Below are positions 59,072 to 60,012 of a stretch of 64,000 bases of DNA, one piece after another. A program made the position numbers and the translations under genes. The first letter of the stretch is position 1, and each line of letters opens with the position of its first letter. The DNA comes from Eledone cirrhosa (taxonomy: Eukaryota). The stretch covers positions 154,194,001 to 154,258,000 of the forward strand of contig OZ024743.1 in assembly GCA_964016885.1 (NCBI GenBank). The letters are read 5' to 3'. The notes beneath the pieces are model-generated. The model had not been told where the DNA came from. It was given only the letters and a program-made list of their open reading frames with translations, and did no database searches.

Positions 59072-60012
59072 ATGTATGTATAGTATATTTGGCAATATAC
59101 TGTATGTTTAATTAAAAACATTTTGAAAACAATACGCTATCGGTTTAAAAGTTGTGACTATGTCACTTATTTCTTTTTAGCGAAAGAAGGGAGAGAAGCT
59201 AACAGTCTGTTTCACGGTGTTGGTGATCATCAGAGCCACGCACACCCTTCTTTCGTCGAAAACTATAGAAGCTGGATTCTTATAGAATTCCCGTAATAAT
59301 CAGGAGCTGATTATACAGAGCCATTGCCGGTCCAGCAAAATTTAGGTATTAGGATTGGTGCTTTGAAATAGCGATGAATACCTGAATGTATATATAGTAT
59401 ATTTGGCAATATACTGTATGTTTAATTAAAAATATTTTGAAGACCATACGCTATCGGTTTTAAAGTAGTGACTATGTCAATTACTTCTTTCCGACGAAAG
59501 GTGGTTCTGATGATCGCCAACTGCTTGAAATAGACTCCTCTCCCTTCTTTCACAGAAAAGAAGTAAATGATATAGTCACTTCTTTAAAACCGATAGTGTA
59601 TGGTCTTCAACATGTTTTTAATTAAACATACCGTATATTGCCAAATATACTATACATACATTCATGTATACATCGCCATTTCAGAGTACCAATCCTAATA
59701 CCCAAATTTTGCTGGACCGGTAATCGCTTTTTATAATCAGCTTCTGATTATTACGGGAATTCTATAAGAATCCAGCTTCTATAATTTTCTGCGAAAGCAG
59801 GGAGTGCGTGGCTCTGATGATCCCGAACTGCGTGAAACAGACTGTTAGCTTCTCTCCCTTCTTTCGCCGAAAAGAAGTAAGTAACATAGTCAGTACTTTA
59901 AAACCGATAGCGTATGGTCTTCAAAATGTTTTTACTTAAACATACGGTATATTGCTAAATATACTATACACACATTCATGTATACTTCGCTATTTCAGAG
60001 CACCAACCCTAA
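59072..60012. mobile_element. Non-coding 314-bp tandem repeat with one hammerhead per unit (retrozyme-like), as two divergent blocks
   Basis: Period 314 (GGCAATATAC at 59091 and 59405; TTGC.AAATATACTAT at 59638 and 59952). CTGATGA at 59507 and 59814 (+) and ~59225-59231 (-). (TA)n on both sides. Confidence 0.8.
59810..59850 (+). ncRNA. Minimal type I hammerhead motif of the 314-bp unit
   Basis: GGCT-CTGATGA-TCCCGAACTGCGT-GAA-ACAG A CTGT-T-AGCT. Confidence 0.75.

What the first reader, a model, noticed from the sequence alone, without database searches (positions are those of the whole stretch)
59072..60012. 314-bp hammerhead tandem unit: candidate retrozyme / circRNA replicon
Seen: a non-coding unit repeats head-to-tail with a 314-bp period, ~1.35 units on minus (59500 to 59072) and ~1.6 units on plus (59501-60012), inside (TA)n. 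Each unit carries a type I HHR with consensus GGCT-CTGATGA-T-CGC caact GCG-T-GAA-ACAG A CTGT-T-AGCT. Known: metazoan non-LTR retrozymes are short tandem units with type I HHRs that give circRNAs and are proposed to use PLE RT; a 1-nt stem III loop needs two HHRs to pair, which tandem copies allow. Inference: this is rolling-circle reverse transcription of a ~314-nt circle, inserted with the same 5' inversion and (TA)n target as the neighbouring PLEs. I am not aware of a description of this family.
Basis: partly seen in the sequence, partly recalled or inferred. Interest (0 to 1): 0.85.

Follow-up and report, generated by a model that had tools for sequence, protein, structure and literature searches.

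The report
Hammerhead retrozyme spread by Penelope-like elements
This is an old, decayed copy of a 314-base non-coding repeat that carries a hammerhead-ribozyme motif and is scattered at more than a thousand places in this animal genome; it belongs to a known class (retrozymes), and its young sister copies sit in uniform two-armed arrays that were likely made by a Penelope-type reverse transcriptase running round a small RNA circle.

Summary
Confirmed: two inverted arms of a 314-bp tandem unit inside (TA)n. The window's three hammerhead (HHR) copies are all damaged. The unit is dispersed (at least 1,102 exact HHR matches) and belongs to a clan of 310-321-bp sister families; the youngest (C) has 16,902. 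Across five families the nine fixed HHR core bases are invariant, while 21 of 52 predicted pairs change on both sides, including C3-G8 to U3-A8. No sampled copy continues into a shared ORF. They fall at two sites about 35 nt apart, and 48 of 50 classed inverted insertions use one site per arm: the Penelope-like (PLE) 'tail' signature. In 11 young arrays (89 units), differences are either fixed in every unit, on both arms, or singletons; none is intermediate. That favours repeated copying of one monomer, most likely a circle. The class is published (Cervera and de la Pena 2020; Li et al. 2026 preprint), so this is a new member. The added value is genomic evidence on how the tandems form. Not shown: expression, cleavage, circles, the helper element. 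The scan's earlier findings held nothing relevant.

The parts
59047..59071 (.). (TA)n target, left side; also the tail of an adjacent, unrelated inverted repeat element (58878-59046)
59072..59500 (-). Inverted arm, 1.37 units, 5'-truncated at 59500; its 3' end is at the proximal start site and runs into (TA)n
59201..59237 (-). Type I HHR core on the minus arm (CUGAUGA from 59233; GUU ends at 59201); stem II damaged
59501..60012 (+). Direct arm, 1.63 units, 5'-truncated at 59501; its 3' end is at the distal start site and runs into (TA)n
59507..59537 (+). Broken HHR copy; a 7-nt deletion removes the cleavage triplet
59785..59873 (+). HHR domain: 13-bp outer stem (59785-59797 with 59861-59873), stem I (59810-13 with 59847-50), core 59814-20, stem II 59821-33 (one mismatch here), GAAA 59834-37, palindromic stem III 59837-45, predicted cleavage after 59846
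59907..59993 (+). Conserved structured domain before and around the proximal start site (about 59978): closing helix 59907-12 with 59988-93, hairpins 59926-43 and 59946-65; inferred recognition element for the reverse transcriptase
   Evidence: function inferred
59979..60012 (+). About 35-nt 'tail' between the two 3'-end sites, present on this arm only
60013..60148 (.). (TA)n/(CA)n target, right side
56760..58623 (.). Context only: neighbouring 5'-truncated coding PLE (endonuclease-like frame 57761-58231, minus; CxCx5C linker as described for the Hydra clade) with its own inverted arm and (TA)n ends; no sequence similarity to the unit

Best explanation
The feature is a decayed insertion of a high-copy, protein-free tandem repeat with a hammerhead motif (a non-LTR retrozyme), which was likely spread by the reverse transcriptase-endonuclease of an unidentified Penelope-like element copying a predicted ~314-nt RNA circle. 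Steps: (1) inferred: a tandem array is transcribed; neighbouring HHRs pair through their palindromic stem III and cut out monomers, which are ligated into circles. (2) Inferred: the PLE protein binds a conserved two-hairpin domain and cuts (TA)n. (3) Shown as a genomic pattern: copying starts at two fixed internal sites about 35 nt apart, 130-165 nt past the predicted HHR cut, and in inverted insertions one arm starts at each site. (4) Inferred from array uniformity in sister family C: each cDNA runs round the same monomer for up to about 10 turns, and the two 5'-truncated ends are joined head to head. (5) Shown: family A copies such as this one have since decayed by about 4% and are at most about 2.3 units long in the sample.
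For: Dispersal: 3,255 first-look candidates, 40 scored; full-length hits at other loci 85-92% identical; exact HHR motif counts 1,102 for A and 16,902 for C. No ORF link: none of 45 non-inverted 5' flanks from 96 loci shows a shared upstream continuation; arrays run up to about 9.5 units head to tail. Selection on RNA structure: 9 of 9 core columns invariant across A, B, B2, C and C2 (8 of 9 when the single A2 copy is added) against 21 of 86 other HHR-domain columns; 21 of 52 pairs change on both sides, 96.7% of cells paired against 36-48% when slid; C3-G8 becomes U3-A8 in B and A2; base 17 is U in 56, C in 20, a gap in 1 and G in 0 of 77. Two-ribozyme fold: stem III is palindromic in A, B and C; duplex vs hairpin is -6.9 vs +2.1 (A), -20.1 vs -1.8 (B), -7.5 vs +6.0 kcal/mol (C); core helices of a natural C dimer give -12.6 (double) vs +1.8 (two singles). 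PLE-type integration: 137 of 161 segment 3' ends fall at the two sites, 125 of those 137 run into TA/CA/TG repeats, and 55 of 96 loci are inverted; 48 of 50 inverted pairs with both arms classed are proximal+distal, 2 proximal+proximal, 0 distal+distal, and 16 further pairs had an unclassed arm. This matches the published PLE tail and two-site initiation (PMC11167929, PMC8557442). One template per insertion: 11 family-C arrays, 89 units, 7 haplotypes, 9 variant sites fixed array-wide, 8 singletons, 0 intermediate; the commonest variant is also seen in two public runs of one sample. In family A, within-locus agreement at polymorphic sites is 311 of 402 (77%) against 59% between loci.
Against: No RNA data: expression, cleavage and circles are not shown. 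The helper was not found: profile searches of 29 Hydra-type, 11 N2 and 30 GIY-YIG loci gave only nested or fragmentary clan copies, none attached in register to a coding 3' end. Array uniformity comes from family C (about 66% identical to A), from 11 arrays nearly all in the first 36 Mb of one contig, and could be inflated by assembly polishing. Family A's within-locus agreement is only 77%. Within A the core is not clearly better conserved than the rest (27 of 822 vs 948 of 23,167). Covariation rests on about three independent family splits, and the number of pairs with two-sided change was reached by 46 of 500 shuffles. Folding z-scores are as strong on the antisense strand, so they do not identify the functional strand. 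In the anole PLE, HHR cleavage was not needed for insertion in vitro (PMC11167929), and 8 of 9 Xenopus retrozyme dimers did not cleave (Li et al. preprint).
Confidence: 0.72

Rival explanations
1. Same element and same PLE-type integration, but the template is a linear multimeric transcript of a genomic array made uniform by local amplification (unequal crossing-over or conversion). No circle is needed and the HHR only trims ends. Local amplification is the scenario discussed by Li et al. 2026.
For: Uniform source arrays would give uniform copies. PLE RT starts internally on unprocessed RNA, and HHR mutants still insert in vitro (PMC11167929). No circle has been seen here.
Against: A new mutation in one unit of a source array should appear in a subset of daughter units, but 0 of 17 variants in 89 units were at intermediate frequency, while 7 haplotypes were fixed array-wide, on both inverted arms where both had full units. 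Purely local expansion also does not explain arrays bounded by the two start sites on opposite strands.
Confidence: 0.14
2. The template is a self-cleaved linear monomer, and the RT makes tandems by jumping from its 5' end to the 3' end of the same or another monomer, without ligation.
For: It explains single-haplotype arrays equally well if the same molecule is reused. A few insertions join clan sequence directly to other PLE families (L092, L094, L105, L111), which suggests template switching can occur.
Against: Junctions at the predicted cleavage site show no unit-to-unit indels in 89 units; repeated jumps would be expected to leave some. Related retrozymes accumulate as circles (PMC7229834).
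Confidence: 0.1
3. The unit is only the pseudo-LTR of a coding PLE, seen here as 5'-truncated ends.
For: It has pLTR architecture (HHR, two ends, tail), and the HHR of one B copy nearly matches that of a coding family (alignment score reached by 1 of 300 shuffles).
Against: Units repeat directly head to tail with no ORF between them, and no common upstream sequence was found in 45 flanks. The clan probably derives from a pLTR but is not attached to an ORF in any sampled locus. The sample is about 115 loci out of thousands, so rare coding copies are not excluded.
Confidence: 0.03

Closest known systems
Metazoan non-LTR retrozymes (Cervera and de la Pena 2020, PMC7229834; text parts 2-4 of 6 read)
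   Same: Short (170-400 nt) low-GC tandem units with a type I HHR, non-coding, thousands of copies, co-occurring with PLEs; weak stem III with dimeric cleavage and a U-U mismatch at the base of stem II (axolotl); circle-templated tandem cDNA proposed.
   Different: New sequence clan. A word search of that paper's main text found no 'inverted', 'inversion', 'tail' or 'microsatellite'. Circles were shown there and are untested here. Its supplement was not read.
Retrozymes as non-autonomous PLE derivatives (Li, Clavereau, Pollet, bioRxiv 10.64898/2026.07.22.740005; text parts 1-3 of 5 read)
   Same: About 310-340-bp units, mostly up to 7 repeats, origin from PLE pLTRs, mobilisation by PLE machinery proposed.
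   Different: They match 24 of 57 Xenopus families to known elements and discuss local amplification of tandems; they state that the mechanism is unresolved. Here no parent was identified, and array structure points to tandems made at insertion. Supplements were closed.
Penelope-like elements: tail, inverted 5'-truncated arms, two-site internal initiation (PMC11167929, parts 1-2 of 4 read; PMC8557442, passages)
   Same: Two fixed 3' ends 30-40 bp apart, tail at one end only, inverted arms, AT-rich or (TA)n targets, HHR upstream of the start sites, an ATG inside the HHR core.
   Different: No ORF; a longer outer stem I; the unit itself is the whole element.
Non-autonomous Chlamys PLEs such as MRC1 (PMC8557442, passage)
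   Same: Non-coding PLE dependants with multicopy head-to-tail insertions.
   Different: Those resemble their autonomous partners at the 3' end, and Chlamys elements mostly lack canonical HHRs; no such partner was found here.

Membership tests
Non-LTR retrozyme | Short (150-450 bp) non-coding head-to-tail tandem unit | tested here: met
   314-bp period; sister arrays of 310-321 bp; no long ORF in the element
Non-LTR retrozyme | Type I HHR in each unit | tested here: met
   Met at family level. The window's own copies are degenerate and Rfam found no match
Non-LTR retrozyme | Dispersed multicopy; no LTR, PBS/PPT or attached ORF | tested here: met
   PBS/PPT were not searched separately; there is no internal region between the repeats
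Non-LTR retrozyme | Two consecutive complete HHRs at the locus ('active' in Li et al.) | tested here: not met
   Not met at this locus; met in family C arrays
Non-LTR retrozyme | Self-cleavage and accumulation as circular RNA | not testable with these tools
   Needs RNA data or bench work
Non-LTR retrozyme | Co-occurrence with autonomous PLEs | tested here: met
   62,628 and 35,409 first-look candidates for two endonuclease queries, 10,596 for PF01541 (candidates, not copy numbers)
PLE-mobilised element | Two fixed 3' ends 30-40 bp apart, tail on one end only | tested here: met
   48 of 50 classed inverted pairs are mixed
PLE-mobilised element | 5' truncation with an inverted arm; microsatellite target | tested here: met
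   55 of 96 loci inverted; 125 of 137 classed ends in TA/CA/TG repeats
PLE-mobilised element | Sequence link to an autonomous partner's pLTR | tested here: inconclusive
   Only a 28-nt HHR match of one B copy to a coding family, plus similar end architecture; no profile hit elsewhere
Autonomous PLE | RT plus GIY-YIG ORF between pLTRs | tested here: not met
Viroid-like RNA replicon | RNA-to-RNA replication; ribozymes or intermediates in both polarities | tested here: inconclusive
   The HHR descriptor hits lie on one polarity of the unit; RNA intermediates could not be tested

The most novel reading that the evidence does not exclude
The clan is a natural record of target-primed rolling-circle reverse transcription: a PLE protein (possibly a dimer) primes twice on one ~310-nt circular RNA, at two fixed sites flanking a conserved two-hairpin handle, and writes up to about 16 identical units as two inverted arms in a single event. 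Retrozyme tandems, and perhaps PLE pseudo-LTRs and tails in general, would then arise from circular templates at insertion rather than by satellite-like expansion. Family C would be a very recently active, minimal substrate for testing this.
Probability: 0.6. Interest if true: 0.68.

Novelty: new member of a known kind. Interest (0 to 1): 0.42.

Why it matters
The class is known, but its life cycle is still mostly proposal. Circles were shown in coral, mussel and axolotl; copying of the circle by a PLE enzyme was not, and the 2026 preprint calls the mechanism unresolved and leans on local amplification for the tandems. This genome holds about 17,000 near-identical young units. Their fixed start sites, paired arms and all-or-none variants let the circle-versus-multimer question be tested from sequence alone. 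The covarying two-hairpin domain gives a concrete candidate RNA handle for a PLE reverse transcriptase. The window's own copy is an unremarkable fossil.

Tried and rejected
Rfam at gathering thresholds: no match. Expression: no RNA holder listed. Runs X1-X3 are of unknown kind, come from one sample, look like genomic DNA, and gave nothing on splicing or circles. Helper search: blastn/nhmmer of clan units against loci of the neighbouring Hydra-type family (29 loci), family N2 (11) and 30 top PF01541 loci found only nested or fragmentary clan copies; a masked search of 720 kb found other HHR families but no coding partner. Chimeric junctions with coding PLEs involve four different families, one case each, and where both ends could be classed (L092, L094, L105) they do not follow the proximal/distal rule, so they were not used to name a helper. 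Retained-intron idea (donor-like motif after the HHR domain, acceptor-like motif between the start sites): the donor is not kept in family C or A2 and there is no RNA test, so it is left as a lead. The short frame from the ATG in the HHR core ends within the unit and was not pursued. Permuted 3' breakpoints: rejected. Folding z-scores: uninformative on strand. Rows dropped before counts: duplicate loci (10, more); a mis-specified row in alignment A2 (redone as A3); and L175's fifth 'unit', which is a separate family-A copy. The end of one family-C arm was counted in both L040 and L061 in the segment totals. Pfam did not recognise the neighbouring element's proteins; its clade label rests on motifs described in PMC8557442. 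Scan look-ups returned nothing relevant. The organism was not identified.

Full report
Observation. Three HHR-like cores are present, but all are damaged. Two have stem II mismatches and one has lost the cleavage triplet. Rfam finds nothing. The only two GUU-bearing copies are on opposite strands, so this locus is a fossil.

Family. The window lies in a 3.0-Gb genome. The unit gave 3,255 first-look candidates, of which 40 were scored; a second query added loci. An exact 17-mer of the HHR occurs 1,102 times. In 50 distinct loci the copies depart about 4% from each column's commonest letter, and the longest single-strand run is 726 nt. A loose-end motif and a flanking hit led to sister families: B (about 321 bp; 619 exact motif hits), C (310-312 bp, about 66% identical to A; 16,902 exact HHR hits), and minor A2 and B2. 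A 16-mer shared by the clan occurs 24,605 times. Reversed-pattern controls were 0 in each case.

The ribozyme motif is under structural selection. On 20 natural segments (alignment A3), nine core columns are invariant across A, B, B2, C and C2 (8 of 9 with the one A2 copy), against 21 of 86 other columns of the HHR domain. Of 52 named pairs, 21 change on both sides; 96.7% of cells pair, against 36-48% when partners are slid. These include 7 of 13 pairs of a long outer stem and the core pair C3-G8, which becomes U3-A8 in B and A2, a covariation also reported in Schistosoma PLEs (PMC4209133, parts 1-2 of 4 read). Limits: the signal comes from few family splits; 46 of 500 shuffles reach the count of 21; and within family A the core is mutated in 27 of 822 cells against 948 of 23,167 elsewhere, as expected for neutral decay after insertion. 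Stem III is a palindrome in A, B and C, and the two-ribozyme duplex is computed to be much more stable than the hairpin. A 3-bp stem with a 3-nt loop is possible in an A monomer, so dimer dependence is likely but not forced. Cleavage was not tested.

Ends. 5' ends are spread over the unit, but 3' ends are not. In 96 loci of four families, 137 of 161 segment ends fall at a proximal or a distal site about 35 nt apart, and 125 of these 137 run into TA/CA/TG repeats. Fifty-five of 96 loci are inverted. Of 66 inverted pairs, 50 had both arms classed: 48 proximal+distal, 2 proximal+proximal, 0 distal+distal. The window's locus follows the rule (minus arm proximal, plus arm distal). [quoted passage not shown] The proximal site lies just after two hairpins with compensatory changes (GCAA loop in B, UUCG in C) inside a helix-closed domain, next to an internal TA tract that could pair with a (TA)n primer. 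That this domain is the protein's handle is inference.

No coding part. Units follow each other directly for up to about 9.5 turns per arm. The 45 non-inverted 5' flanks share no common upstream continuation; shared hits are other (TA)n-nesting repeats. The genome is rich in coding PLEs. The neighbour at 56760-58623 has the same inversion and target, and its CxCx5C linker and the DKT motif of a longer copy fit the Hydra clade as described in PMC8557442 (my notes called it Neptune-like from recall before I read this). It shares no sequence with the unit. One coding family with a CCHH-type endonuclease (N3; 'Neptune-like' is my recalled label, no tree was built) has a U3-A8 HHR nearly identical to that of one B copy (1 of 300 shuffles; 29 of 300 or worse for the three other units tested) and a similar proximal end and tail length. 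It is a lead for ancestry, not an identified helper.

Template. In family C, 11 arrays with at least three full units hold 89 units. They fall into 7 haplotypes. Nine variant sites are fixed in every unit of an array, on both arms where both have full units (for example a 1-nt insertion in all 13 units of L142). Eight differences are singletons, and none is shared by a subset of units. The commonest variant is present in two public runs of one sample. A mutation in one unit of a parent array becomes array-wide in a daughter only if a single monomer is copied repeatedly. A circle is the simplest such template; repeated jumping on a linear monomer is possible but would be expected to leave junction indels, and none was seen. 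Family A shows a weaker version: 311 of 402 within-locus comparisons agree, against 59% between loci. Caveats: small, positionally clustered sample; assembly polishing; inference carried from C to A.

Comparison with what is known. PMC7229834 (parts 2-4 of 6) defines non-LTR retrozymes, shows circles, and proposes PLE-driven tandem cDNA. The 2026 preprint (parts 1-3 of 5) links them to pLTRs, discusses local amplification, and leaves the mechanism open. Word searches of both main texts found no description of inverted arms, tails or unit identity; their supplements were not seen and may bear on this. Six literature searches (listings only, apart from the five papers named) showed no description of this clan or of this genomic test. 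The library lacks most subscription papers, and repeat databases could not be searched.

Verdict. A real feature; a decayed member of a new family in a known class. The identity as a PLE-mobilised non-autonomous HHR repeat is well supported (about 0.9). The circular template is likely (about 0.7) but not shown. Interest 0.42, resting on the sister family's value as a test of rolling-circle reverse transcription.

Noticed in passing
L142-L147, L175, L178-L180 (G000 C1, first 36 Mb): Family C, a very young 310/311-bp sister family with about 16,900 exact HHR matches, forms two-armed arrays of identical units; a better experimental subject than the window copy.
   Followed up: yes
Family C variant table: Six of nine array-wide variant sites lie in the HHR core domain (about 15% of the unit), mostly at tolerant positions (N7, loop II, the U-U base of stem II, a G-U swap in stem I); the 1-nt insertion in L142 lies two bases past the predicted cleavage site. 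Unexplained.
   Followed up: partly
L194-L223; L135:440-1370: Two further HHR tandem families: W (about 421 bp, with what may be a long array at C28:45.63-45.69 Mb) and V (467 bp). W has two hairpins followed by a TA tract downstream of its HHR, like the clan, and both carry an octamer-like motif upstream of the HHR (motif name recalled).
   Followed up: partly
L092:1282-1860; L094:300-1741; L105; L111: Insertions in which clan sequence is joined directly to a coding PLE family's sequence, twice with a short inverted piece of one partner at the junction; possible co-integration or template switching.
   Followed up: partly
window 59877-59998 (+): Splice-donor-like motif after the HHR domain and acceptor-like motif between the two start sites; coding family N2 also has an acceptor-like motif between its two ends. 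Possibly a relic pLTR intron.
   Followed up: partly
window 56704-58878, 46330-47126, 61017-61348: Abundant Hydra-type PLE fragments with inverted arms in (TA)n; the genome holds tens of thousands of related endonuclease candidates.
   Followed up: partly
window 39133-39455 and 40885-41321: Inverted ends of two other HHR-bearing repeat families, one with a U3-A8 core.
   Followed up: no
window 58878-59046, 60124-60225, 6191-6460, 53104-53231: Another (TA)n-targeting inverted family; 6355-6456 and 60124-60225 are 100% identical over 102 bp, suggesting recent activity.
   Followed up: no
window 10090-15401, 20393-25090, 25849-29128, 34090-36648: Several decayed LINE copies with APE endonuclease and RT Pfam hits, 70-80% identical to each other.
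   Followed up: no
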